NCBI GenBank assembly: GCA_964544155.1
Contig: CAZJAH010000005.1
Span: 13,420-77,419, forward strand
Length of the DNA: 64,000 bases
Source: an uncultured Hyphomicrobiales bacterium
Lineage (GTDB): Bacteria; Bacteroidota; Ignavibacteria; Kapaibacteriales; UBA2268
Reading direction: 5' to 3'
The notes under the pieces are model-generated. The model searched no databases. It saw only the letters and a program-made list of their open reading frames with translations, and was not told the DNA's origin. Of the stretch, positions 4,524-14,960 are shown one piece after another. Position 1 is the first letter of the stretch; every line of letters begins with the position of its first letter. The position numbers and the translations under genes were made by a program.

Positions 4524-5792
4524 ATGAAAAAAATCATTTTACCGGTAGTATTATTGTCAGCCCTGGCTGCGGCGGCAGTCTGGTATTTTTATTTTAGGGC
4601 AGACGAATTCGTTGACGAGCTTACCATAAAGCCGGAAAAAGGCGAATTTGTCCTCACCGTGATGGGTACAGGCGAGCTGCAGGCAAAGAACTCCATAGAC
4701 ATAAAAGGCCCTTCCAGGGCGCAGATGCTAAACATCTACCAGCTAAAGATATCTAAGCTGGTGCCCGAGGGTACTATCGTTAAAGAAGGCGACTTTGTAG
4801 CCGAACTGGATCAATCCGAAGTGCTCAACCAGCTCAAAGAGCTGGACCTTTCTATTGACCAGAGGCGCTCAGAGCTGCAGCAATCAAAGATCGATACCAC
4901 TCTGGAGCTATCCCAGGCACGCGACCAGCTCATAAACTTAAAGTTCAGCCTTGAGGAAAAAAAGCTCATGGTAGAGCAGTCCATGTATGAACCGCCTACA
5001 GTTATCAGGCAGGCCGAAATTGATTACGACCGTACTCTTAGAAGCTTCAATCAGTCACTCAGGAACTACGACCATCAGGTCAAAAAAGCCGAAACCAAGG
5101 TGAGCATACTCCAGACCAGGCTGAATATGGAGCTTCAGAAAAAAGCACAGATAATGGAAATTCTCGAAGAATTCACCATAACCGCACCGGCTCCCGGTAT
5201 GGTAATTTACGCCCGGGAATGGGGCGGAAGAAGAAAAGTCGTAGGCTCGACTATTTCGGCATGGAATCCAACTGTCGCTAAGCTGCCCGACCTTTCACAA
5301 ATGGAATCCCTGACGTATATAAACGAAATTGACATTCAGAAAATTAAAAAAGAACAAAATGTAAATATAAGCCTTGACGCCCTGCCCGATAAAAAGCTCA
5401 GCGGCAAGATAATAAAAGTGGCAAATATAGGAGAGCAGCTTCGCGGAAGCAACTCTAAAGTATTCGAAGTGATTATCGACATTGAGCAGAAAGATACTAC
5501 CCTGCTTCCTGCCATGACTACAAGTAATGAAATCATTGTCAGCAAAGTCCCCGGAGCGCTGTACATACCCCTGGAATGCCTCCACGCCCTTGAGCAAAAG
5601 GAAGGCAAGCTTACTTATGTTTACAAAAAAGACGGTTCAGCTATTATCCGTCAGGAAGTATTAACTGGAATGATGAACGACAACGAAGTCATTATCGAGG
5701 ATGGACTTAACGCTGAGGACGAAATCCTGCTAAGCGTCCCTGTCGAAAACAAAAATTACGAAATCCACTATCTGAAAGATAAAAATGCTTAA
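4524..5792 (+). CDS. Periplasmic adaptor / membrane fusion protein (MacA/HlyD-like)
   Basis: N-terminal TM, lipoyl-like VPEGTIVKEGD, long coiled coil, ITAPAPGMV, INEIDI. Confidence 0.88.
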   Translation: MKKIILPVVLLSALAAAAVWYFYFRADEFVDELTIKPEKGEFVLTVMGTGELQAKNSIDIKGPSRAQMLNIYQLKISKLVPEGTIVKEGDFVAELDQSEVLNQLKELDLSIDQRRSELQQSKIDTTLELSQARDQLINLKFSLEEKKLMVEQSMYEPPTVIRQAEIDYDRTLRSFNQSLRNYDHQVKKAETKVSILQTRLNMELQKKAQIMEILEEFTITAPAPGMVIYAREWGGRRKVVGSTISAWNPTVAKLPDLSQMESLTYINEIDIQKIKKEQNVNISLDALPDKKLSGKIIKVANIGEQLRGSNSKVFEVIIDIEQKDTTLLPAMTTSNEIIVSKVPGALYIPLECLHALEQKEGKLTYVYKKDGSAIIRQEVLTGMMNDNEVIIEDGLNAEDEILLSVPVENKNYEIHYLKDKNA

Positions 5793-7119
5793 AATATTCT
5801 TCTACAATTTCAGGGTAGCAGTTGAATCTATGACGCAGAATAAGCTCAGGGCCGTGCTGACATCCCTGGGAATCATATTCGGTGTGGGCTCGGTTATTTC
5901 CATGCTGGCTATAGGAAAAGGAGCCGAATTTGAGATTGTAGAAAAAATGAAGCTGCTCGGAACGAATAATATAATCGTCAAACCTATTGATAAAAACAAG
6001 CCCCGGCCAATAGGCGAAGAAACCGAAGAAGAAACCGAATCAACCGACAAAAAGCAATCAGGCGCCAAAAAGTATTCACCGGGGCTTAGCCTGGAGGATA
6101 AATTAAGCATCGAAAACGTTATCCCCGATATTAGGTACGTAAGCCCTGAGATAGTACTGCCCACAGAAGCCATCAGAAGCGGTAAAAGCCGCGAGATTAA
6201 CCTTGTAGGCATAGACAGCTCCTATTTTCGGGTTAATGCTTCAAGAATTAGCAGTGGTTCGAGCTTCACGCCTTACCATGAAGAAAGGCCAGTTTGTATC
6301 ATAGGTCAGAAAATTGCCATCAGGCTATTCGCCGGTGAAAATCCCGTCGGCAAAAGGATCAAATGCGGAAAGGAATGGCTAACGGTTATTGGTATTACCG
6401 GCGAACTGAAGCTAAGCAATGAGAATATTTCAAACCTGGGCCTTAGAGATCTGAATAATGATATTTATGTACCTATCAACACAATGCTGCTAAAATTCAT
6501 TAACCGCTCATTAATTACGGAAGAAGACCTCGACAGAAGGCAACAAAATGAAAATATTGAGATAAACAACCACCAGATCGACAGGATGGTTGTACAGGTT
6601 GAAAACACAGAAAAAATTAAAACAGTTGCAGCAGTAATTGAAAACATGCTGTTAAGAAGGCACAATGACAATAAGGATTTTGAAGTAATTGTACCTGAAC
6701 TGCTTTTGGAGCAGGAGCAGAGCACCAAAAGGATATTTAATATAGTCCTCGGAGCGATCGCATCCATTTCACTGCTGGTCGGTGGTATCGGTATCATGAA
6801 TATCATGCTTGCTTCTGTACTCGAACGGACAAAAGAGATTGGCATAAGGAAAGCAGTAGGAGCCAAAAGAGCAGACATATTACTTCAATTTCTGATCGAA
6901 GCCGTCAGTATAAGCCTGACGGGCGGCCTGATAGGTATAATAATAGGTGTAGGAGGCAGTATTTTGATTGAATCACTTACTGATATACAGACCATAGTAT
7001 CGCCATTTTCAGTAGCCCTGGCATTTTTGGTATCTATCAGTATTGGCCTTATTTTTGGAATTACGCCCGCTCGCAAGGCGGCACAACAGGATCCTATCGA
7101 TCTTCTGAGGTATGAATGA
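5785..7119 (+). CDS. MacB/FtsX-like ABC transporter permease (no NBD)
   Basis: LRAVLTSLGIIFGV, GGIGIMNIMLASVLERTKEIGIRKAVGA, PARKAAQQDPIDLLRYE. Confidence 0.92.
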   Translation: MLKIFFYNFRVAVESMTQNKLRAVLTSLGIIFGVGSVISMLAIGKGAEFEIVEKMKLLGTNNIIVKPIDKNKPRPIGEETEEETESTDKKQSGAKKYSPGLSLEDKLSIENVIPDIRYVSPEIVLPTEAIRSGKSREINLVGIDSSYFRVNASRISSGSSFTPYHEERPVCIIGQKIAIRLFAGENPVGKRIKCGKEWLTVIGITGELKLSNENISNLGLRDLNNDIYVPINTMLLKFINRSLITEEDLDRRQQNENIEINNHQIDRMVVQVENTEKIKTVAAVIENMLLRRHNDNKDFEVIVPELLLEQEQSTKRIFNIVLGAIASISLLVGGIGIMNIMLASVLERTKEIGIRKAVGAKRADILLQFLIEAVSISLTGGLIGIIIGVGGSILIESLTDIQTIVSPFSVALAFLVSISIGLIFGITPARKAAQQDPIDLLRYE

Positions 7120-8588
7120 TAAGGTATTTGATAATATCGGCAGTAGTTTTTTTTTCAATAATAAATAATTCACTTTCGGTAGAATACAATTTTACCCTTG
7201 AAGAATGTATTGAATTCGCAAAAAACAAAAGCCCTGAAGCTGTTATAGCAAAGAACAACTATTTGAATAACCTGTATTCTTACGAATCATTCAAAGCTGG
7301 TTATCTGCCGCAGCTTTCATTATCGGGCTCAGGTCCGGGTATTTTTCGTGCCATCGACCAGATCACGCTCGATGACGGATCAATCATTTATACCCAGCAA
7401 AATAGAAGTACGGCTTCAATGGACATGTCTATAAGCCAAAGGATTGCCTTAACCGGCGGTGAATTCTTTATCTCAAGCGGAATAAGCAGAATAGATATAT
7501 GGGGAAGCCGCGATGATTTATTTTATAGAGCCACTCCGATGCAGATTAGCCTCAGCCAGCCCCTTTTCCGGCATAATGATATGGGATGGCAGCATAAGAT
7601 CAGAGACCTGCGCAATCTCAATTCAAAGAAAAAATTTACAGAATCAATTGAAGATCTTAGTATTAACATCACTGATGCTTTTTTTAATCTTTACATTTCC
7701 GAAATGAATCTTGCAAATGCACGGTTCAATGTTGAGATCAACGATACACTTCTGGCTCTTTCGCAAGGCAGGTACTCGGTGGGAAAAATTGCTGAAAATG
7801 ACCTGCTGCAAAGCGAGCTTGCGGCTACACAATCCCGCATTGAACTTGAACGCTCCGAAATGAACTTCGCAGAAGCACGCGAACAGCTTAAAATAAGCCT
7901 TGGCATGAATAATGACGATGTAATAAATATAATTCCGGAAACTGAGGCCGAATTTCCGGCTATTAATGTTGATATTGCCATAAACAAAGCTCTGGAAAAC
8001 AACTCCACAATAACCGACCAGAATATAAGCAAAGTCGAAGCCGAAAGAAATCTCCAACAGGCTAGAAGCAACAATAACTTCACTGCAAGCCTTACAGCGA
8101 GTTTCGGATTGAACCAGAGTGCCGGGAACCTGCCTGAGGCTTACCGGGAACTGCTCGACCAGGAAAGGCTGGATCTCACTTTCATGGTACCCCTTTATAC
8201 ATGGGGCAAGGGCTCGGCCGAGATTGATGCCGCACTTGCCAATGAGGAAGTAGTAAGAACCGAAAATGAAATAAACCGCGATCAGTTTATTTTGAATGTT
8301 AAATATCAGGTTCTCAGGTTCAATCAGCTTCAGAAACAGGTTATTATTGCCGCAAAAGCTGATACTATCGCAAAAAAAAGATTCGAGCTTGCAAGAAAAA
8401 GATATATGGTCGGCAAAATTGACCTGAACTCCCTTTTTATAGCCCAAAGGGAAAGGGATAACGCTTTTCAGTCCTATATACAAACGCTTCGCAGCCTCAA
8501 GGTGGCTTATTACAGGCTCCGCAGATTAACACTTTTTGATTTCAGGGAAGAAAGAAATATTGAACATCCTGTACCCGGCCGCTTTTAA
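7116..8588 (+). CDS. TolC-family outer membrane channel
   Basis: Signal peptide, two OEP repeats (YLPQLSLSG, RYSVGKI, RYMVGKI); start overlaps the permease stop. Confidence 0.88.
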   Translation: MIRYLIISAVVFFSIINNSLSVEYNFTLEECIEFAKNKSPEAVIAKNNYLNNLYSYESFKAGYLPQLSLSGSGPGIFRAIDQITLDDGSIIYTQQNRSTASMDMSISQRIALTGGEFFISSGISRIDIWGSRDDLFYRATPMQISLSQPLFRHNDMGWQHKIRDLRNLNSKKKFTESIEDLSINITDAFFNLYISEMNLANARFNVEINDTLLALSQGRYSVGKIAENDLLQSELAATQSRIELERSEMNFAEAREQLKISLGMNNDDVINIIPETEAEFPAINVDIAINKALENNSTITDQNISKVEAERNLQQARSNNNFTASLTASFGLNQSAGNLPEAYRELLDQERLDLTFMVPLYTWGKGSAEIDAALANEEVVRTENEINRDQFILNVKYQVLRFNQLQKQVIIAAKADTIAKKRFELARKRYMVGKIDLNSLFIAQRERDNAFQSYIQTLRSLKVAYYRLRRLTLFDFREERNIEHPVPGRF

Positions 8589-8896: not shown

Positions 8897-9601
8897 ATGG
8901 ATTTTGCAATAATCGCAGCTGGTGAAGGAAGCAGGCTAAAGGAGGAAGGAATTGACTTCCCAAAAGGCCTTGTAAAAATAAACGGCAGGCCTATGATAGA
9001 AAGGCTTGTCGAGATAGCCGCAAGGCATGGTGCCGATTCACTTAGCTGCATCGTTAACGACCATTCGCATGATCTGCTGGGATGGTTTGTTAATAACAAT
9101 CATCCGATAAAAATCAATCTTACCGTTAAAAGCACCGCCAGTTCCATGCACAGCCTTTTCGAGCTGAGACGGTTCCTCGAAGGCAGGGATTTCTGCCTTA
9201 CAACTGTAGACACAATTTTCAAAGAAGATGAATTCAATGATTTCATCAACTATTGTAAAAATAATAATGGCAAGGCAGTTATAGCCGTAACGGATTATAT
9301 TGACGACGAAAAGCCGCTTTACACAAGGATAGACAACGATATGAATATCCTGTCCTTTGATGACGAAATCAATGGCCATACATATGTAACCGGCGGTATT
9401 TACTACCTCCCTGGAACAATATTCGGCCTTCTAGAAAAACTAATAAATTCCGGCGAAATGCACCTCAGGAATTTCCAAAGATCGCTGATCAGCGCCGGAT
9501 ATGAAGTTAAAGCATGGCCTTTCACAAAAATAGTAGATGTGGATCATATCAGCGATATAAAGGCAGCCGAAGAATTTGTTTCGGCTTACACCAAATATTG
9601 A
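8897..9601 (+). CDS. NTP transferase (inositol-phosphate cytidylyltransferase/LicC-like nucleotidyltransferase)
   Basis: AIIAAGEGSRL...PKGLVKING, TVD, DVDHISD; GGAG-like SD; clustered with MIPS. Confidence 0.8.
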   Translation: MDFAIIAAGEGSRLKEEGIDFPKGLVKINGRPMIERLVEIAARHGADSLSCIVNDHSHDLLGWFVNNNHPIKINLTVKSTASSMHSLFELRRFLEGRDFCLTTVDTIFKEDEFNDFINYCKNNNGKAVIAVTDYIDDEKPLYTRIDNDMNILSFDDEINGHTYVTGGIYYLPGTIFGLLEKLINSGEMHLRNFQRSLISAGYEVKAWPFTKIVDVDHISDIKAAEEFVSAYTKY

Positions 9602-9620
9602 AAAAAACTCAGGTAAAAAA

Positions 9621-10448
9621 ATGAAACTAAAATTTGCCGCAATTAAAAGAGATACCAAATTTTCACCTAATCATGTCGAAACTGACGACAGGATCATCCA
9701 GAGCACAGCCGCCGCGCTAAGAGAAAAAGGCGCCGAAGTTAATATATATGAAGAATGTGACCTTAACAATGGCGGTATTAAAGAAGAATTCATATTTAAC
9801 ATGACTCGCAGCAAAGCAGCACTCAGTTACCTAAGCAGTAAGATCAGCAGCGGAGCTTTTGTTATTAATTCTCCCGAAGCAATTTTGAATTGCTATCGCG
9901 AAAACATGACCCGAATGCTTCCGGATAGCGGCATCCCATTTCCTAAAAATAAGATCATAAAAACAGGAGAGCACCAGAACGGAAGCCTGAACGGCTTTAC
10001 AAACGGCAGAATATGGGTCAAGCGCGGGGATGTACACGCTTTGCACAGAGAAGATGTAGCCGCGGTATTCGGCCCTGATGAAAGAGACCAACTCCTGATG
10101 GAATTCAATAAACGCGGCATAGAAAAAGCCGTTCTCCAGCAGCATCTGGAAGGCGATGTAGTTAAGTTCTACGCCGTGCGCGGAACGGATTTCTTCCATT
10201 GGTACTATTTCGACCGTAAGGAAGGCATACATTTCAGTGAGAAAAAGCTTCATGAGATCGCCATCGCTTCAGCAGAAGTGCTCGGTGTTGATATATATGG
10301 CGGTGACGCTGTAATATCTCCCGACGGCAGTATAAGGGTGATCGACCTGAACGACTGGCCGAGCTTCGCGCCCGTACGCAAACATGCCGCATCAGTGATA
10401 GCGGATTTTATTTTTACCAAAGCGCAAAGTTTTCTTAAGCAAAATTAA
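9621..10448 (+). CDS. ATP-grasp fold protein with ITPK1-like (inositol phosphate kinase-like) motifs
   Basis: VINSPEAI, GIPFP, WVKRGD, LQQHLEGDVVKFYAV, LGVDIYGGD, VIDLNDWPSF; ATG at 9621 preferred over the TTG at 9576. Confidence 0.7.
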   Translation: MKLKFAAIKRDTKFSPNHVETDDRIIQSTAAALREKGAEVNIYEECDLNNGGIKEEFIFNMTRSKAALSYLSSKISSGAFVINSPEAILNCYRENMTRMLPDSGIPFPKNKIIKTGEHQNGSLNGFTNGRIWVKRGDVHALHREDVAAVFGPDERDQLLMEFNKRGIEKAVLQQHLEGDVVKFYAVRGTDFFHWYYFDRKEGIHFSEKKLHEIAIASAEVLGVDIYGGDAVISPDGSIRVIDLNDWPSFAPVRKHAASVIADFIFTKAQSFLKQN

Positions 10449-10603
10449 TAATTTTCATTATTTTTGAACGCTCAATTTTAAATTATTTTTCTGAGCGATA
10501 AATGATTTTGTTTACTTTTGCCGATTCACTGAGCAAATCAACGGAATCATTCTTAAATATTAAACAGGATGAAATTACGCAACTTTTTTGAAGTGAAATC
10601 ATT

Positions 10604-11548
10604 ATGCCTGAAAAGCGCAACATAAGCCTTGAATCGACTTTTAAATCCAAAGACACAGAAGAATTTATAGACATATATTTCTACCGCCCGATCGGCTTAA
10701 AGACTGCCTTCCTCGCTGAAAGGCTGAATTTGACGCCAAATGCTGTTACCTATGTAAGCATTGTGCTTGGCTCCGTTGCAGGACATTTGTTTTTTTATGA
10801 TAATATATGGATAAATATCGCCGGTATGCTGCTGCTTATATGCGCCAATATACTCGACAGCGCGGACGGACAACTGGCCCGTATGACCGGGCAAACGACC
10901 AAAACAGGCCGATTCCTCGACGGGTTCGCCGGTAATCTTTGGTTCCTCAGCATTTATGTGCATATTGGCCTCAGGGTAATATCAGGCGGCGGCCCTCTGG
11001 CAGTGTTCCTGCTGCTGCTTGTTACGGGAGTTAACCACTCATTCCAGGCCGCTCTGGCAGACTATTACAGGAACTTTTATCTGTATATTGTGGCAAGGGT
11101 AAAAAATTCCAGGCCGGATGATTCTAAGGATATCGACGAAGAATTAAGCCGGATAAGATTTCAAGAAAATCCCGTCGGAAAAATTTTTACTAAACTATAT
11201 TCAAATTATACCAAGCAGCAGGAGCTCTTAACTCCCAAGCTTAATAAGCTCTTCAGATATATTCAGGATAAGTTCGATTACCCCTATCCCACAGACTTCA
11301 GGCAAGAGTATAAAAAATATAATAAGCCGCTTTTAAAATATACAAATATCCTTACTACAAATACCAGGTTTATTGCCTTATTTATATCGCTTTTCCTTGA
11401 TAGTGTTCTGCTTTATATTTATTTTGAACTGACTGTACTAAACGTGATCTTTGCTTACATGGTTATCAGGCAGGAAAGCACAAGCAATAGGCTTTTGCGG
11501 GGGCTTAAAAAATCGGAAACTGAAGAAATTCCGGAATACAGCAAATGA
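10604..11548 (+). CDS. CDP-alcohol phosphotransferase (DIPPS/PIPS-like)
   Basis: LTPNAVT and DSADGQLARMTGQTTKTGRFLDG signature. Confidence 0.88.
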   Translation: MPEKRNISLESTFKSKDTEEFIDIYFYRPIGLKTAFLAERLNLTPNAVTYVSIVLGSVAGHLFFYDNIWINIAGMLLLICANILDSADGQLARMTGQTTKTGRFLDGFAGNLWFLSIYVHIGLRVISGGGPLAVFLLLLVTGVNHSFQAALADYYRNFYLYIVARVKNSRPDDSKDIDEELSRIRFQENPVGKIFTKLYSNYTKQQELLTPKLNKLFRYIQDKFDYPYPTDFRQEYKKYNKPLLKYTNILTTNTRFIALFISLFLDSVLLYIYFELTVLNVIFAYMVIRQESTSNRLLRGLKKSETEEIPEYSK

Positions 11549-12582
11549 AGGGGACAAAATTATCGGGGATGATATTTTTTGTCCTGGGATTCGCAATCCT
11601 TACCTACCTTGTAATAGACTTAGGCGTTGATAAAATCTATGAAAATATTCTAAAAACCGGCTGGTGGTTTATACCGGTTGTCGGTATATGGCTATTTATC
11701 TATTTGTTGAATGCCTTTGCATGGAATTACATTATCGGCAGAAAATATTCACCAGGCTATGGACATGTCCTAGGCATAACCGTCAGCGGCTTCGCGATTA
11801 ATTACATCACTCCTTTTGTAAATCTTGGCGGGGAGCCATACCGCATAATGGCATTAAAAGAAGCCACAGGTATTCATAAGGCAGTATCATCGGTTATCCT
11901 TTATACCATGATGCATATGTTTTCGCATATCATCTTCTGGGTGATAACCATTTTCCTGTATCTGATATTCTGGCCGATGAGCGATTTTCTGTTTACATTT
12001 TTAAGTATATCACTGGCAGTTCTACTCTTACTGCTGTGGTTTTTCTTCACAAGGTATAAAGCAGGCGTCCTACTTTCTTTCACTAATCTAGTCAAAAAGC
12101 TGAAATTTCTTAAAAAGATCAACAAAATTATAGAGAGCAAGCAGGATAGCCTGAAAATGATAGACGATCAGATCAAGTACCTTTACTTCAACAGGCCGAA
12201 AGCTTTTATTATAGCATTGGGGCTCGAGTTCATCGGCAGGATAATGGCAGCCAGCGAATTTTACTTTATAATTCTGGCAGTGAATATCGAAGCCAGCTTC
12301 CCGGATACACTTATGGTCTATTCCGGCGTAACATTATTTACCAATATATTATTCTTTATGCCGCTGCAGCTGGGCTCGCGCGAGGGCGGGCTGTATATTG
12401 TTTTCGAAAGTATGGGCATTAGCCCTGAGATGGGGGTATTCGTAAGCCTTATAACCAGAATTAGAGAATTATTTTGGATTCTGATAGGGCTTCTTTTAAT
12501 TAAAATAAATAACTTAGGAAATCATAAAAACAGGATCCCCGAACTTAGCGGAAAGGAAAAAGAATTATTAGATAAGACCTAA
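11545..12582 (+). CDS. Lysylphosphatidylglycerol synthase TM-domain (flippase-like, UPF0104) protein
   Basis: About 8 TM segments, NYITPFVNLGGEPYR, PLQLGSREG, LITRIREL. Confidence 0.85.
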   Translation: MKGTKLSGMIFFVLGFAILTYLVIDLGVDKIYENILKTGWWFIPVVGIWLFIYLLNAFAWNYIIGRKYSPGYGHVLGITVSGFAINYITPFVNLGGEPYRIMALKEATGIHKAVSSVILYTMMHMFSHIIFWVITIFLYLIFWPMSDFLFTFLSISLAVLLLLLWFFFTRYKAGVLLSFTNLVKKLKFLKKINKIIESKQDSLKMIDDQIKYLYFNRPKAFIIALGLEFIGRIMAASEFYFIILAVNIEASFPDTLMVYSGVTLFTNILFFMPLQLGSREGGLYIVFESMGISPEMGVFVSLITRIRELFWILIGLLLIKINNLGNHKNRIPELSGKEKELLDKT

Positions 12583-12701
12583 TTATCAAATAAATTAATA
12601 TTTAGTATATTTCCTAACACAAAATGAATAAACTTCTTGGTAAATTGAAATTCAATATTTAAATTAAAGTTTAGCGGCGATAAAACGATTATTTTTAAAA
12701 G

Positions 12702-12734
12702 GGATCAGCCGGATTGCTATTCAGCTGATCCTTT
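12702..12734 (+). terminator. Stem-loop (possible terminator or processing hairpin) inside the inositol cluster
   Basis: GGATCAGC...GCTGATCC stem with a 14-nt loop followed by TTT. Confidence 0.4.
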
Positions 12735-12817
12735 AATATAAAAAACAGTGATTTGTAGTGTTTTTTAAATTAGGAAGGGAAAAATAAAGAACTAATGGAT
12801 ATTCCGGAGGCAAATTA

Positions 12818-13561
12818 ATGCGAATTAAAGCTCTTTTATTTGATTTTGGCGGAACCATTGATACTGATGGTATGCATTGGAGCGAAAAATTTTGGGAAGC
12901 GTATACACTTAAAAATATCCCAGTATCCAAGGAAGATTACGAGAAGGCGTACGTGTGGGCTGATGAGCAGATGAACAGGATGGAAATTAATGAGAATATG
13001 AAATTCCGCCAGATAATTGAAAGTAAGATATCACTTCAATTGCAATTTTTAGAAAAAAATAGCAGGCTAAAAGTTAAAAAAGATACGAACGAACTGATCG
13101 AAGACCTTACAGGCCTTCTTTACAGCGAAGTATCAAAAAATATACTGCGCAATACAAAGCTTCTGATGGAATTAAGCATGAAATACCATATTGGTGTTGT
13201 TTCCAATTTTTACGGCAATCTGGAAACAGTCATGCAGGAATTTAAATTGCAGAATTTTATCACAACGATAATAGATTCAAAAGTTGTCGGATTACGAAAG
13301 CCCGACCCCGCCATATATAATGAAGCATGCGAGGATATCGGTATAAGTACGCGAGAGGCCATAGTTATCGGTGATGATTACGAAAAGGACATTGAAAGCT
13401 CCAAAAAGATCGGCTGCTCTACTGTGTGGCTGGACGGCCAGAGCTGGAAAAAACCTAATACCACTCCGGACGCCGATGTGATAATCAAATCCCTTGATCA
13501 GGTTAGAAATGCCATCAAAAGAATTGAATCAAAACTGGAAGATCAGAATGAAGCTCAGTAA
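12818..13561 (+). CDS. HAD-superfamily hydrolase
   Basis: FDFGGTIDTDG motif I, VVSN, RKPDPAIY, IGDDYEKDI. Confidence 0.9.
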   Translation: MRIKALLFDFGGTIDTDGMHWSEKFWEAYTLKNIPVSKEDYEKAYVWADEQMNRMEINENMKFRQIIESKISLQLQFLEKNSRLKVKKDTNELIEDLTGLLYSEVSKNILRNTKLLMELSMKYHIGVVSNFYGNLETVMQEFKLQNFITTIIDSKVVGLRKPDPAIYNEACEDIGISTREAIVIGDDYEKDIESSKKIGCSTVWLDGQSWKKPNTTPDADVIIKSLDQVRNAIKRIESKLEDQNEAQ

Positions 13562-13609
13562 TCGGAAGCTTCTGATGAATAAGAATTTAAAGATATTTAC
13601 GGAGTAATA

Positions 13610-14917
13610 ATGGATAAGAAAGATATTAAGGGCCCCCAAGGAAAATTAGGAGTTCTGATAGTTGGTTTTAACGGTGCGATATCTACTACTTTTTTAGCAG
13701 GAGTGATGTCTATCAAACAGGGCAAAGCTCTGCCAATCGGTTCACTTACACAAATGGCCACTATAAGAATAGGCACACGAATCAAGAAGCAGTTCCCTAA
13801 GATTAAAGATTTCGTTCCTCTTGAAAGCCTGGAAAATCTTGTTTTCGGCGGTTGGGATATCAGGGATGAAAATATTTATGATGCTGCGATCGATAACAAA
13901 GTGCTCGATAGCCGCGATATTGAACCATTTAAGAACGAACTTACGCAACTTCATCCTATGAAGGGGGTTTTCCAACAAAAATATGTTGCCAAACTTAAGG
14001 GCGATTACATAAAGAATGGCTCTAACAAGTTCGAACTCATGGAAATGCTCAGGGAAGACATCAGGAATTTCAAAAAAGAAAACGCCTGTGACCGGCTAGT
14101 CATGATATGGTGCGGAAGCACGGAAATATTCCAGTCAAAACATGAAGTTCACGAAAGTATTGAATCTTTTGAACAAGCTATGAAGGATAGCCACGACTCT
14201 GTTTCACCCAGTATGCTTTATGCCTGGGCCGCGCTATCGGAAGGAATACCATATATTAACGGCGCTCCAAACCTGACTATCGACATGCCGGCTATGAGAC
14301 AGCTTGCCGAAATAAACCAGGTACCATTGGCAGGCAAGGATTTCAAAACCGGCCAAACCATGATAAAAACAGTTATCGCTCCCATGCTGAAAGCAAGAAT
14401 GATTGGCCTGGAAGGCTGGTTCTCAAGTAATATACTGGGTAACAGGGACGGCGAAGTGCTGGACGATCCGGATTCCTTCAAAACAAAGGAGGAAAGCAAA
14501 CTCTCGGTTATAGATGATATTCTTCAGCCGGATATTTACCCCGATCTGTACAAGGATTATTATCATAAAGTACGTATACACTACTATCCGCCCCGCGGCG
14601 ATAACAAAGAAGGCTGGGATAATATTGACATTTTCGGCTGGTTGGGCTACAAAATGGAACTGAAAATCAATTTCCTTTGCAGGGATTCCATACTGGCTGC
14701 GCCCATAGTACTCGACCTGGTTCTGCTTTCTGATCTGGCACAGCGCTGCGGCATGAGCGGCATACAGGAATGGCTCTCATTCTACTTTAAAAGCCCCATG
14801 CACTCAGAGGAAATCATTCCCGAGCACGATCTGTTCATACAGCTCATGAAGCTTAAAAACACCCTCAGGGAAATAATGGGCGAAGAAGTTATAACTCATT
14901 TAGACTATAAACCGTAA
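13610..14917 (+). CDS. ino1: myo-Inositol-3(1)-phosphate synthase (MIPS)
   Basis: FGGWDI, WCGSTE, NGAPN, GKDFKTGQT, NILGNRDG, GDNKEGWD, CRDSILAAP, SFYFKSP. Confidence 0.95.
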   Translation: MDKKDIKGPQGKLGVLIVGFNGAISTTFLAGVMSIKQGKALPIGSLTQMATIRIGTRIKKQFPKIKDFVPLESLENLVFGGWDIRDENIYDAAIDNKVLDSRDIEPFKNELTQLHPMKGVFQQKYVAKLKGDYIKNGSNKFELMEMLREDIRNFKKENACDRLVMIWCGSTEIFQSKHEVHESIESFEQAMKDSHDSVSPSMLYAWAALSEGIPYINGAPNLTIDMPAMRQLAEINQVPLAGKDFKTGQTMIKTVIAPMLKARMIGLEGWFSSNILGNRDGEVLDDPDSFKTKEESKLSVIDDILQPDIYPDLYKDYYHKVRIHYYPPRGDNKEGWDNIDIFGWLGYKMELKINFLCRDSILAAPIVLDLVLLSDLAQRCGMSGIQEWLSFYFKSPMHSEEIIPEHDLFIQLMKLKNTLREIMGEEVITHLDYKP

Positions 14918-14935: not shown

Positions 14936-14960
14936 GGCGGGGTAATCCCCCGCCTGTTTT
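14936..14960 (+). terminator. Intrinsic terminator after MIPS
   Basis: GGCGGGG-TAATC-CCCCGCC followed by TGTTTT. Confidence 0.7.

What the first reader, a model, noticed from the sequence alone, without database searches (positions are those of the whole stretch)
9621..10448. Candidate bacterial ITPK1-type inositol phosphate kinase inside an inositol lipid/solute cluster
Seen: an ATP-grasp protein directly behind the NTP transferase and in the same cluster as MIPS, with motifs VLQQHLEGDVVKFYAV, LGVDIYGGD and VIDLNDWPSF. Established: RimK/LysX/Ddl-type ATP-grasp ligases end in E-x-N, whereas inositol-1,3,4-trisphosphate 5/6-kinases (ITPK1) have Q...K-V-[FY]-V-V, LG-x-x-LFG-x-D and I-D-I-N-x-F-P-G-Y, i.e. 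D-x-N. ITPK1 is regarded as eukaryotic, with Asgard archaeal homologs. Inference: this gene may phosphorylate MIPS-derived inositol-3-phosphate or a derivative. That would give a bacterial lipid-independent route to higher inositol phosphates or to phosphorylated inositol headgroups. This is the best candidate for an undescribed system in the window.
Basis: partly seen in the sequence, partly recalled or inferred. Interest (0 to 1): 0.85.

Follow-up and report, generated by a model that had tools for sequence, protein, structure and literature searches.

The report
Overlooked ATP-grasp enzyme in inositol-lipid operon
This gene encodes a widespread but unnamed ATP-using enzyme that always sits, together with a phosphatase, inside a bacterial operon for inositol-type membrane lipids, and it most likely phosphorylates the inositol ring before it is attached to the lipid.

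Summary
ORF 9621-10448 (+) encodes a 275-aa ATP-grasp protein with the three quoted motifs, 19 nt after an IPCT-like NTP transferase. The operon is NTP transferase, ATP-grasp, CDP-alcohol transferase, flippase-like protein, HAD, MIPS.

ITPK1 membership is not shown. No Pfam model hits the protein. Profile searches place PsnB, ITPK4, RimK and ITPK1 close together. VIA Z scores tie: RimK 22.2, ITPK1 20.3. Only the C-terminal D-x-N...P-S-F motif is ITPK-like.

The family is large (993 representatives) and locked to this operon:
- HAD is present in 80 of 86 loci; the 6 without it are cut contigs.
- The protein is found fused to the NTP transferase, the CDP-OH transferase, HAD or an aminotransferase.
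- 52 of 52 MIPS loci without the ATP-grasp also lack the HAD, although 39 keep the NTP transferase.

So ATP-grasp plus phosphatase is an add-on to the basic CDP-inositol route. About two thirds of the loci also carry an inositol-dehydrogenase-like gene and an aminotransferase. Residue 63 (Arg or Gln) tracks their presence.

Best reading (about 0.5): a cyclitol kinase that feeds the cytidylyltransferase for an inositol or amino-inositol lipid head group. It is not a route to higher inositol phosphates.

The parts
8897..9601 (+). NTP transferase, IPCT-like (probable CTP:cyclitol-phosphate cytidylyltransferase)
   Evidence: Pfam NTP_transf_3 2.1e-10 and NTP_transferase 3.2e-8. The best NCBIfam hit is the archaeal bifunctional inositol-1-phosphate cytidylyltransferase/DIPP synthase, 3.4e-16 over residues 4-228. 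It is found fused to the ATP-grasp in other genomes.
9621..10448 (+). The finding: a 275-aa ATP-grasp protein of an unnamed family; proposed cyclitol kinase
   Evidence: No Pfam family. AF2 model has pLDDT 90.2 and an ATP-grasp fold. 993 representative relatives. Conserved operon position.
10604..11548 (+). CDP-alcohol phosphatidyltransferase, 314 aa (probable head-group transferase)
   Evidence: Pfam CDP-OH_P_transf 3.8e-12. NCBIfam archaetidylinositol phosphate synthase 2.1e-13, PIP synthase 4.5e-9, IPCT/DIPPS 4e-8.
11545..12582 (+). Flippase-like membrane protein (LPG_synthase_TM)
   Evidence: Pfam LPG_synthase_TM 1.7e-35. NCBIfam flippase-like domain TIGR00374 6.8e-20.
12818..13561 (+). 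HAD-IA phosphatase-type hydrolase, the constant companion of the ATP-grasp
   Evidence: Pfam HAD_2 3.7e-17 and Hydrolase 2.8e-14. Present in 80 of 86 ATP-grasp loci; the other 6 are cut contigs. Present in 0 of 52 MIPS loci without the ATP-grasp.
13610..14917 (+). myo-inositol-3-phosphate synthase (MIPS)
   Evidence: Pfam NAD_binding_5 3.1e-103 and Inos-1-P_synth 5.2e-33.
14936..14954 (+). Terminator-like G+C hairpin with T tail, the likely operon end
   Evidence: Seven G-C pairs and a T-rich tail, 19 nt after the MIPS stop. This is a consensus match only.

Best explanation
The gene encodes a soluble ATP-grasp enzyme of a large, unnamed family. It is a fixed component of a bacterial operon that builds a CDP-activated cyclitol head group and transfers it to a membrane lipid.

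Most likely it is a cyclitol kinase working as a pair with the operon's HAD phosphatase. The proposed order is:
1. MIPS makes inositol-3-phosphate.
2. The HAD enzyme removes that phosphate.
3. In most relatives a GFO/IDH/MocA dehydrogenase and a class-III aminotransferase then convert the free ring to an amino-inositol.
4. The ATP-grasp puts a phosphate back on the ring.
5. The IPCT-like NTP transferase makes the CDP-cyclitol.
6. The CDP-alcohol transferase attaches it to diacylglycerol or ceramide.
7. The flippase-like protein (and Mla genes in relatives) move the lipid.

In the window's reduced operon, which has no dehydrogenase or aminotransferase, the same pair would move the phosphate to another ring position, or would also salvage free inositol. 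A variant order is not excluded: the ATP-grasp phosphorylates inositol-3-phosphate to a bisphosphate, and the HAD removes the extra phosphate from the finished lipid.

Shown: the fold, intact ATP/Mg residues, operon conservation, fusions, and co-occurrence with HAD. Inferred: phosphotransfer rather than ligation, the substrate, and the order of steps.
For: (1) Active-looking ATP-grasp. The model has pLDDT 90.2 and an ATP-grasp fold. Over 121 representatives the invariant or near-invariant residues include K134, K182, H175, G227-G228-D229, D242 and N244.

(2) Fixed operon membership. Among 80 loci from different species, the gene has on the same strand a CDP-OH transferase in 75, HAD in 74, NTP transferase in 72, flippase-like protein in 69 and MIPS in 66. 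The same order recurs in five other families of the phylum.

(3) Fusions.
- Of 12 long representatives, 6 are NTP transferase + ATP-grasp, 1 is NTP + ATP-grasp + CDP-OH transferase and 1 is HAD + NTP + ATP-grasp.
- Of 18 longer homologues, 13 carry NTP-transferase domains, 1 NTP + CDP-OH, 1 Aminotran_3, 1 CDP-OH, 1 HAD and 1 none.
- The ESM Atlas lists fused clusters of 127, 92 and 60 members.

(4) Add-on module. In 401 genomes of the phylum, 23 have the gene and 74 have MIPS.
- All 52 MIPS loci in genomes without the ATP-grasp also lack the HAD. Yet 30 keep MIPS + NTP transferase and 9 keep CDP-OH transferase + MIPS + NTP transferase (Pfam checks).
- HAD is in 80 of 86 ATP-grasp loci. The 6 without it are contigs that end within about 4 kb.

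(5) Phosphate bookkeeping (inference). The single phosphate of inositol-3-phosphate ends up in the CDP link. A dedicated phosphatase therefore needs a second phosphorylation, and the ATP-grasp is the only ATP-using enzyme in the operon.

(6) Sub-operon. L065 has ATP-grasp, aminotransferase, dehydrogenase and HAD together, with no NTP transferase, CDP-OH transferase or MIPS within 8 kb.

(7) Residue 63 tracks the presumed substrate.
- It is Arg in 25 of 26 rows from loci without the aminotransferase.
- It is Gln in 60 of the 66 aminotransferase-locus rows that cover the position.
- Of the 6 Arg rows there, 5 are second copies of tandem pairs.

(8) The catalytic motif is D-x-N-x-W-P-S-F, as in ITPKs and not E-x-N. 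RimK's loop around F-R-S-N-L-H-R-G-G has no counterpart in the family (alignment).
Against: No test here separates a kinase from a ligase directly.
- The highest structural scores are to ligases: RimK Z 22.2, LysX 21.9, against ZmITPK1 20.3. The differences are within the tie range. Foldseek's top hits are PsnB, ArgX and Ddl.
- The best PDB profile hit is the ester-forming ligase PsnB at 3.1e-8. RimK aligns over 205 residues, whereas the ITPKs align only over the last 50-100.
- NCBIfam's only hits are RimK-type models, far below their cut-offs.
- The gene is often next to, and once fused with, an aminotransferase. That would also suit an amide ligase.
- The HAD/ATP-grasp co-occurrence and the residue-63 pattern rest on few independent events: 2 to 3 independent pairs, and the sign test cannot reach significance.
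- In the window's own operon, phosphatase followed by kinase looks futile unless the ring position changes. That is not shown.
- The HAD absences rest on an HMM built from cluster HADs. A very divergent HAD could be missed.
Confidence: 0.5

Rival explanations
1. It is an ATP-grasp ligase. It forms an acyl-phosphate from a carboxylate (for example an amino acid) and joins it to a hydroxyl or amino group of the inositol or amino-inositol head group. The result is a charged lipid that the MprF-like flippase domain protein exports.
For: - Best structural and profile neighbours are ligases: RimK Z 22.2 and LysX 21.9, PsnB 3.1e-8 and RimK 1.2e-5 over 205 residues.
- NCBIfam hits the RimK family at 4.7e-7.
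- 27 of 132 representatives weakly hit ATPgrasp_ST and 20 hit RimK.
- The gene is directly followed by a class-III aminotransferase in most loci and is fused to one in P0275.
- An LPG_synthase_TM protein is in the operon.
Against: - The gene is kept, with the same invariant residues, in 26 rows from loci that have no aminotransferase, and the window's genome has no cluster-type copy. The amine therefore cannot be the core acceptor.
- D-x-N replaces E-x-N in 119 of 121 representatives.
- The Gly-rich loop and the R-x-N...G-G loop of RimK are not matched.
- A ligase role gives the strictly co-occurring HAD phosphatase nothing to do, and does not explain the fusions to the NTP transferase.
Confidence: 0.25
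2. It acts late, on the lipid. It would be a head-group kinase that makes a phosphorylated inositol lipid (PIP-like), with the HAD enzyme as the opposing phosphatase.
For: The strict ATP-grasp/HAD pairing fits a kinase/phosphatase couple. Lipid transport genes are in the operon.
Against: - The protein is soluble, with no membrane segment in the model.
- The fusions are mostly to the soluble NTP transferase, which acts before lipid attachment.
- No ATP-grasp lipid kinase is known to me (recalled).
- The sub-operon with dehydrogenase, aminotransferase and HAD in L065 points to soluble ring chemistry.
Confidence: 0.1
3. It is a true ITPK1 orthologue that builds higher inositol phosphates (InsP2 to InsP6) from inositol-3-phosphate, independently of lipids.
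For: - The C-terminal motif is ITPK-like.
- AtITPK4 is the second-best PDB profile hit at 5.4e-7.
- One fused subfamily carries PF05770 on 51% of its 92 members.
- Asgard ITPK clusters are among the nearest named clusters, at 0.95.
- ITPK1 is reported to phosphorylate inositol-3-phosphate (PMC6900528, abstract and passages read).
Against: - PF05770 does not hit the protein.
- The central domain gives no ITPK match.
- No conserved basic residue is seen where the AtITPK4 alignment places its Lys-Lys.
- All conserved neighbours are lipid head-group and lipid transport genes.
- No IPK, IPPK or PPIP5K partner was seen in the loci.
Confidence: 0.05

Closest known systems
ITPK1 / inositol 1,3,4-trisphosphate 5/6-kinase family (Pfam PF05770; human, Entamoeba, plant and Asgard enzymes)
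   Same: ATP-grasp fold (ZmITPK1 Z 20.3). Both have the G-x-D ... D-x-N-x-aromatic-P-[SG]-[FY] catalytic end. Both have an inositol context. ITPK1 accepts inositol monophosphates (PMC6900528, passages read).
   Different: Not detected by PF05770. Only the last 50-100 residues align. The central domain is unrelated at sequence level. The family is bacterial, embedded in a lipid head-group operon and often fused to a cytidylyltransferase. The expected product is a monophosphate for CDP activation, not polyphosphates.
RimK / LysX / ArgX alpha-L-glutamate-type ATP-grasp ligases (PF08443), and PsnB
   Same: Highest structural scores (Z 21.6-22.2). RimK aligns over residues 70-274 of the profile. 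Similar size, about 280 aa.
   Different: D-x-N in place of E-x-N (119 of 121). K-R-G-D-x-H-A replaces the Gly-rich loop, and RimK's R-x-N...G-G loop is missing. PF08443 does not hit the protein. No peptide or protein substrate genes lie nearby.
Putative 'alternative' (Bacteroides vulgatus-like) inositol lipid cluster of Heaver et al. 2022 (PMC9246714)
   Same: [quoted passage not shown]
   Different: The paper's main text never mentions an ATP-grasp gene (0 occurrences). It guesses that the HAD is a PI-ceramide synthase. Here the ATP-grasp and HAD appear as a coupled add-on that the simpler MIPS + NTP + CDP-OH clusters lack. Whether the B. vulgatus gene between the published NTP and transferase locus tags is this ATP-grasp is my inference. 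Figures and supplements could not be seen.
Archaeal IPCT/DIPPS (CTP:inositol-1-phosphate cytidylyltransferase fused to a CDP-inositol transferase)
   Same: The neighbouring NTP transferase and CDP-OH transferase both hit this NCBIfam model (3.4e-16 and 4e-8). PDB entries 2xme and 4mnd are hit by the fused-form profile. Domain fusions occur in both systems.
   Different: As far as I recall, the archaeal system uses the MIPS product directly and has no ATP-grasp. Here an ATP-grasp sits between the two domains in the triple fusions (P0235, P0273).

Membership tests
ITPK1 / Ins134_P3_kin (PF05770) | Match to the curated family model above its cut-off | tested here: not met
   No Pfam hit for P0001 even at E 10. 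PF05770 finds nothing at the gene in the window's genome at E 10. Among 132 family representatives, 21 give weak hits, best E 0.0022.
ITPK1 / Ins134_P3_kin (PF05770) | Mg/ATP ligands as G-x-D ... D-x-N (not E-x-N), followed by aromatic-P-[GS]-[YF] | tested here: met
   HMMER alignments to human ITPK1, Entamoeba ITPK1 and AtITPK4. Over 121 representatives: D229 in 120, D242 in 119, N244 in 121, P247 in 121, S248 in 116.
ITPK1 / Ins131_P3_kin (PF05770) | Conserved inositol-phosphate contact residues H167, K199 and R212 of human ITPK1 (listed in PMC6900528, passage read) | tested here: inconclusive
   K182 aligns with the Lys of AtITPK4's K-F-Y strand, but RimK has Arg there too. At the place where AtITPK4 has K-K the family has W/F/Y and no conserved base. 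No alignment covers the H167 region. The mapping of AtITPK4 residues onto human numbering is recalled, not computed.
ITPK1 / Ins134_P3_kin (PF05770) | Structure closer to ITPK1 than to other ATP-grasp families | tested here: inconclusive
   VIA-align: ZmITPK1 Z 20.3 (rmsd 3.1, 247 aligned), RimK 22.2 (rmsd 3.5, 251 aligned), LysX 21.9, CPS 21.9, Ddl 21.3, synapsin 20.1. Foldseek ranks ITPK1 35th at 9e-13, against 1.3e-14 for the top hit.
RimK-type ATP-grasp ligases (PF08443 / TIGR00768) | Match to the curated family models above their cut-offs | tested here: not met
   No PF08443 hit. TIGR00768 scores 29.4 bits against a cut-off of 143.4, on the C-terminal stretch only.
RimK-type ATP-grasp ligases (PF08443 / TIGR00768) | E-x-N Mg site, Gly-rich ATP loop and the R-x-N...G-G substrate loop | tested here: not met
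   D-x-N in 119 of 121. In the alignment to 7qyr, RimK's G-T-Q-G-I-G-V faces K-R-G-D-x-H-A, and RimK's 11-residue stretch with F-R-S-N-L-H-R-G-G is an insertion relative to the family profile.
ATP-grasp superfamily | Three-domain ATP-grasp fold with the two ATP-binding lysines and acidic Mg ligands | tested here: met
   Model pLDDT 90.2. At least 500 PDB ATP-grasp matches at E <= 0.001. Z above 20 to many families. K134 in 121 of 121 and K182 in 120 of 121.
'Alternative' inositol lipid cluster (Heaver et al. 2022) | MIPS next to an NTP transferase, a CDP-alcohol phosphatidyltransferase and a HAD hydrolase, with a lysyl-PG-synthase-like gene nearby | tested here: met
   All five are present on one strand at 8897-14917. 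The description of the published cluster was read.
Cyclitol kinase activity (function, not a family) | ATP-dependent phosphorylation of inositol, inosamine or an inositol monophosphate | not testable with these tools
   Needs an enzyme assay. Only context evidence is available.

The most novel reading that the evidence does not exclude
This is the founding member of a bacterial ATP-grasp cyclitol-kinase family, a distant sister of eukaryotic and Asgard ITPK1. With a HAD phosphatase, an inositol dehydrogenase and an aminotransferase, it makes CDP-activated scyllo-inosamine for an undescribed amino-inositol phospholipid in Ignavibacteria and relatives. In reduced operons such as the window's, it re-phosphorylates myo-inositol at a ring position other than the one MIPS provides, and so sets the head-group stereochemistry of bacterial inositol lipids made by the CDP-inositol route.
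Probability: 0.3. Interest if true: 0.8.

Novelty: new variant of a known kind. Interest (0 to 1): 0.62.

Why it matters
The CDP-inositol ('alternative') route to bacterial inositol lipids has so far been described only as an in-silico prediction with three enzymes (PMC9246714; the 2023 review PMC10191378 says it is 'not yet fully characterized').

This work shows that the commonest form of that operon carries two further fixed genes: an unnamed ATP-grasp enzyme and a HAD phosphatase. The simpler clusters lack both, so the published scheme is incomplete for these organisms.

If the enzyme is a kinase, it would be:
- a new bacterial inositol or inosamine kinase type;
- an evolutionary link between RimK-like ligases and ITPK1;
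- a handle on the stereochemistry of bacterial inositol lipids.

The dehydrogenase and aminotransferase found in about two thirds of the loci point to an amino-inositol phospholipid that has not been reported in the papers I could search. The family is large (993 representatives at 50% identity, at least 566 species genomes) and has no Pfam model, so naming it would improve many annotations, including host-associated Bacteroidales such as Alloprevotella.

Tried and rejected
- Alternative start: the TTG at 9576 was rejected (see the observation check).
- Single-sequence PDB search gave only insignificant hits: PsnB 0.015, ITPK1 0.17.
- The A1 profile put AmpC beta-lactamases (0.012) among the ITPK1 hits (0.006-0.04), so those values are at noise level.
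- The A2 profile was dominated by the fused NTP-transferase part. It was repeated without the fused rows as A3.
- Foldseek and VIA-align could not separate ligase and kinase families.
- PF05770 and PF08443, searched over the window's own genome, did not hit the gene.
- ESM Atlas nearest named clusters are a mix of RimK and Asgard ITPK clusters.
- A profile of the central domain alone (A4: the window plus 46 of the 80 loci) found no ATP-grasp chain in the PDB. The H167 region could therefore not be aligned.
- Three weak genome hits (G172, G312, G380; E about 1e-11) sit in roughly 490-aa open frames. The one scanned with Pfam (G172, L115) is an RLAN + RimK protein next to GCS2 and a C39 peptidase, so it is not this family. 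G312 looks alike by BLAST. G380 was not examined.
- The class-III aminotransferase near the three-gene clusters of family f19 sits among haem genes and PEPCK, and is unrelated.
- The careful tree of 121 representatives did not finish. Only the quick tree was seen.
- The residue-63 association has only 2-3 independent pairs.
- Complex prediction, sequencing-run and read-laying tools were not used.
- Literature searches for the ATP-grasp in this pathway found nothing. A search on Ignavibacteria/Melioribacter lipids listed eight papers, none with these terms in its title or abstract; none of them was opened.
Full report
**The object.**
The ORF runs from the ATG at 9621 to the stop ending at 10448 on the + strand and encodes 275 residues. 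The longer TTG start at 9576 would overlap the stop of the upstream gene. The 52 homologues aligned all begin at the position of the ATG, so 9621 is the start.

The neighbours on the same strand are:
- an NTP transferase (8897-9601), whose best NCBIfam hit is the archaeal inositol-1-phosphate cytidylyltransferase/DIPP synthase at 3.4e-16;
- a CDP-alcohol phosphatidyltransferase (10604-11548);
- an LPG_synthase_TM flippase-like protein (11545-12582);
- a HAD-IA hydrolase (12818-13561);
- MIPS (13610-14917).

A terminator-like hairpin follows MIPS at 14936-14954. Upstream lies an unrelated HlyD/MacB/OEP efflux set.

**Which family?**
- P0001 hits no Pfam model even at E 10.
- NCBIfam gives only a C-terminal RimK-family hit of 29.4 bits, against a cut-off of 143.4.
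- PF05770 (ITPK) and PF08443 (RimK), searched over the window's own genome at E 10, do not hit this gene.
- The AlphaFold2 model, built on a 53-row alignment (P0001 plus 52 hand-picked rows from the best 120 hits), has pLDDT 90.2 and pTM 0.89.
- Foldseek ranks PsnB, ArgX/LysX and Ddl first at about 1e-14, and potato ITPK1 35th at 9e-13.
- VIA-align gives RimK Z 22.2, LysX 21.9, carbamoyl-phosphate synthetase 21.9, Ddl 21.3, maize ITPK1 20.3 and synapsin 20.1.

I built a profile (A3) of 121 diverse representatives. It started from the 150 listed. I dropped 19 short or partial rows, then 11 fused or long rows, and added P0001. Against the PDB it finds PsnB at 3.1e-8, Arabidopsis ITPK4 at 5.4e-7, Pseudomonas RimK at 1.2e-5, Entamoeba ITPK1 at 2.8e-4, human ITPK1 at 4.7e-4 and E. 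coli RimK at 1.3e-3.

Scanning 132 representatives one by one against Pfam at E 1 gives only weak hits, with best E values near 1e-3:
- ATPgrasp_ST: 27
- Ins134_P3_kin: 21
- RimK: 20
- R2K_3: 11
- TTL: 10

The ESM Atlas shows the same picture. Its nearest named clusters are RimK (0.96) and Asgard ITPK (0.95). One fused subfamily of 92 members carries PF05770 on 51%.

The protein therefore belongs to a separate, unnamed family in the RimK/ITPK neighbourhood of the ATP-grasp superfamily.

**What is ITPK-like and what is not.**
The three ITPKs share G-x-D ... D-x-N-x-aromatic-P-[GS]-[YF] with the family. RimK and PsnB have E-x-N.

In the family, D242 is found in 119 of 121 rows, N244 in 121, P247 in 121 and S248 in 116.

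Beyond this stretch the likeness fades:
- ITPKs align only over the last 50-100 residues, whereas RimK aligns over 205.
- A profile of the central domain alone finds no ATP-grasp chain in the PDB.
- PMC6900528 (passage read) names H167, K199 and R212 as the most conserved inositol-phosphate contacts of human ITPK1.
  - K182 faces the Lys of the K-F-Y strand of ITPK4, but this position is basic in RimK too.
  - Where ITPK4 has K-K, the family has W/F/Y.
  - The H167 region could not be aligned.

Against RimK, the family lacks the Gly-rich loop (it has K-R-G-D-x-H-A instead) and lacks the stretch holding F-R-S-N-L-H-R-G-G.

Family-specific invariants are R10, D22, W132, Y184 and W246, with near-invariant S15, P16, M61, N83, R93 and D145. 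This set has more aromatic than basic residues.

**Size and range of the family.**
- 2709 proteins at E 1e-3 in the 90%-clustered collection.
- 993 representatives at 50% identity, of which 244 score below 1e-30.

The titles of the best 80 loci name mostly Ignavibacteria/Melioribacteraceae and Bacteroidales. One 90% cluster holds an Alloprevotella protein annotated 'hypothetical protein'.

**Operon conservation.**
In the 80 loci, tblastn with the window's proteins finds on the same strand the CDP-OH transferase in 75, HAD in 74, NTP transferase in 72, the flippase-like protein in 69 and MIPS in 66.

Most loci are longer than the window's. L007 reads: NTP transferase, MlaE, MlaF, MlaD, ATP-grasp, class-III aminotransferase, CDP-OH transferase, GFO/IDH/MocA oxidoreductase, flippase-like protein, HAD, MIPS.

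By clustering ORFs, the aminotransferase is in 58 and the oxidoreductase in 55 of the 80 loci. The window's genome has only distant paralogues of these two, at 31% identity or less.

In five further families of the phylum the order NTP, ATP-grasp, CDP-OH transferase, (flippase-like), HAD recurs.

**Fusions.**
- Of 12 long representatives scanned, 6 are NTP transferase + ATP-grasp, 1 is NTP + ATP-grasp + CDP-OH transferase, 1 is HAD + NTP + ATP-grasp, 1 is a PAS histidine kinase + ATP-grasp, and 3 have no other domain or an HTH.
- The search for longer proteins gave 18: 13 with NTP-transferase domains, 1 NTP + CDP-OH, 1 Aminotran_3, 1 CDP-OH, 1 HAD and 1 with none.

**The ATP-grasp and the HAD come and go together.**
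In an even sample of 401 genomes of the phylum, 26 match the family profile at 1e-10. Of these, 23 are strong (E 1e-76 or better). The 3 weak ones are RLAN/RimK-type frames; one was checked by Pfam.

MIPS is present in 74 of the 401. Of the 23 ATP-grasp genomes, 22 have MIPS; G371 has none at 1e-40.

I fetched the MIPS neighbourhood (about 9 kb each side) of all 52 MIPS genomes that lack the ATP-grasp. I scanned them in six frames with HMMs built from the operon's own gene families. The 52 loci divide as follows:
- 30 have MIPS next to an NTP transferase only.
- 9 have CDP-OH transferase + MIPS + NTP transferase.
- 9 have only a weak CDP-OH transferase hit.
- 4 have none of these.
- None of the 52 has the HAD or the flippase-like gene.

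Pfam checks on three of these loci agree:
- L161 is CDP-OH transferase, MIPS, NTP transferase, then a histidine kinase.
- L200 is the same trio flanked by haem genes and PEPCK.
- L174 is a TagF-like Glyphos_transf, MIPS and NTP transferase inside a polysaccharide locus.

Conversely, HAD is present in 80 of 86 ATP-grasp loci. The six without it (L016, L032, L040, L054, L055, L060) are contigs that end shortly after the gene.

So CDP-inositol chemistry works without these two genes, and the two form an add-on module.

Two caveats apply. The clusters with and without the module are different lineages (CDP-OH transferase identity 24-34% against 40-50%), so the number of independent gains or losses is small. 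The HAD HMM could also miss a very divergent HAD.

**Mechanistic inference.**
A dedicated phosphatase in the same operon therefore implies a second phosphorylation somewhere. The ATP-grasp is the only ATP-dependent enzyme present. This is inference, but it holds whichever way the steps are ordered.

Two orders are possible:
(a) HAD first, then ring chemistry on the free cyclitol, then the ATP-grasp kinase, then CTP activation.
(b) The ATP-grasp phosphorylates Ins3P to a bisphosphate, and the HAD removes the spare phosphate from the finished lipid.

Order (a) is favoured by L065. There the ATP-grasp, aminotransferase, oxidoreductase and HAD form a block of their own, with no NTP transferase, CDP-OH transferase or MIPS within 8 kb. 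Order (a) is also how I recall the scyllo-inosamine branch of streptomycin biosynthesis running (phosphatase, dehydrogenase, aminotransferase, kinase). That is recalled, not checked here.

**A residue that follows the presumed substrate.**
I took 95 ATP-grasp rows from the 86 loci plus the window and labelled each by whether its locus has the aminotransferase.
- Position 63, in the conserved M-x-R/Q turn, is Arg in 25 of 26 rows without the aminotransferase.
- It is Gln in 60 of the 66 rows with the aminotransferase that cover the position. Three of the 69 rows with it are fragments.
- Of the six Arg rows in aminotransferase loci, five are the second copy of a tandem pair (L027, L045, L043, L117, L063).
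- Position 13 also shifts, from K/Q/R to E/D.

A loss of positive charge where the ring would gain an amino group fits direct binding of the cyclitol.

The support is limited. On a quick tree built without these columns and without the three fragments, the aminotransferase label changes 3 times. Only 2-3 independent pairs exist, and these mostly go the same way, so the sign test cannot reach significance. I treat this as a lead.

**Literature.**
Heaver et al. 2022 (PMC9246714; passages found by term search) describe the 'alternative' cluster as NTP transferase, CDP-alcohol phosphatidyltransferase and HAD next to MIPS, with a lysyl-PG-synthase-like gene nearby. They call it unconfirmed. 'ATP-grasp' occurs 0 times in the main text.

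Their locus tags leave one gene between the NTP transferase and the transferase. That this gene is the ATP-grasp is my inference. The figures are not held and the supplements were closed, and these may bear on the point.

A 2023 review (PMC10191378, passages) repeats the three-enzyme scheme as 'predicted in silico'.

Full-text searches for the ATP-grasp together with inositol and cytidylyltransferase, or for inositol kinase with the alternative cluster, returned no paper. A search on CDP-inositual with kinase returned only the two papers above and an unrelated one.

**Verdict.**
This is an inositol-pathway ATP-grasp with an ITPK-like catalytic end and probably a kinase, but it is not a demonstrable ITPK1 member. 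Its context is lipid head-group synthesis, not soluble inositol polyphosphates.

It is a new, unnamed family whose function is open. My odds are about 0.5 for a cyclitol kinase, 0.25 for a ligase, 0.1 for a lipid head-group kinase and 0.05 for a true ITPK1-type polyphosphate route.

Noticed in passing
L007:8812-10164 and L007:11071-12090 (also 58 and 55 of loci L001-L080): Most relatives of the operon carry a class-III aminotransferase directly after the ATP-grasp, and a GFO/IDH/MocA oxidoreductase after the CDP-OH transferase. This suggests an amino-inositol (inosamine) lipid head group. The window's genome lacks cluster-type copies.
   Followed up: partly
L007:5471-7977: MlaE, MlaF and MlaD (phospholipid ABC transport) lie between the NTP transferase and the ATP-grasp in roughly 47-54 of the 80 loci. 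This points to export of the lipid product to the outer membrane.
   Followed up: no
L117:8965-10634 (G377), and also G101, G173, G381, L027, L043, L045: Tandem duplicates of the ATP-grasp gene. In most pairs one copy has Gln63 and the other Arg63.
   Followed up: partly
L002:7363-8004 (15 of 80 loci): A second, short (213 aa) CDP-alcohol phosphatidyltransferase lies immediately upstream of the ATP-grasp, in addition to the roughly 310-aa one.
   Followed up: no
L174:7783-11102 (30 of the 52 MIPS loci without the ATP-grasp are of this MIPS + NTP type): MIPS and an NTP transferase lie next to a TagF-like Glyphos_transf, glycosyltransferases and a Polysacc_synt flippase. This looks like CDP-inositol used to decorate a polysaccharide rather than a lipid.
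   Followed up: partly
L115:7656-11761: A separate cluster of an RLAN + RimK ATP-grasp protein, a GCS2 glutamate-cysteine-ligase-like gene, an N-formylglutamate amidohydrolase and a C39-like peptidase. It looks like a peptide-modification system unrelated to the finding.
   Followed up: no
window 4524-8588: A HlyD-type adaptor, a MacB/FtsX permease and an outer-membrane efflux protein lie just upstream of the operon on the same strand. None of the 80 related loci has them near the operon.
   Followed up: partly
G000 and its family f1: None of the 6 other sampled genomes of the window's own family has the ATP-grasp, the CDP-OH transferase or MIPS. The operon is therefore patchily distributed and may have been gained by transfer. 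GC content of the region is not unusual.
   Followed up: no
L010:7369-7968 and L010:12911-16130: Bacteroidales versions insert a TetR regulator between the NTP transferase and the ATP-grasp. They are followed by DUF4833 and a CarboxypepD_reg/DUF5686 protein. The latter matches the BT_1527-like neighbour mentioned by Heaver et al..
   Followed up: no
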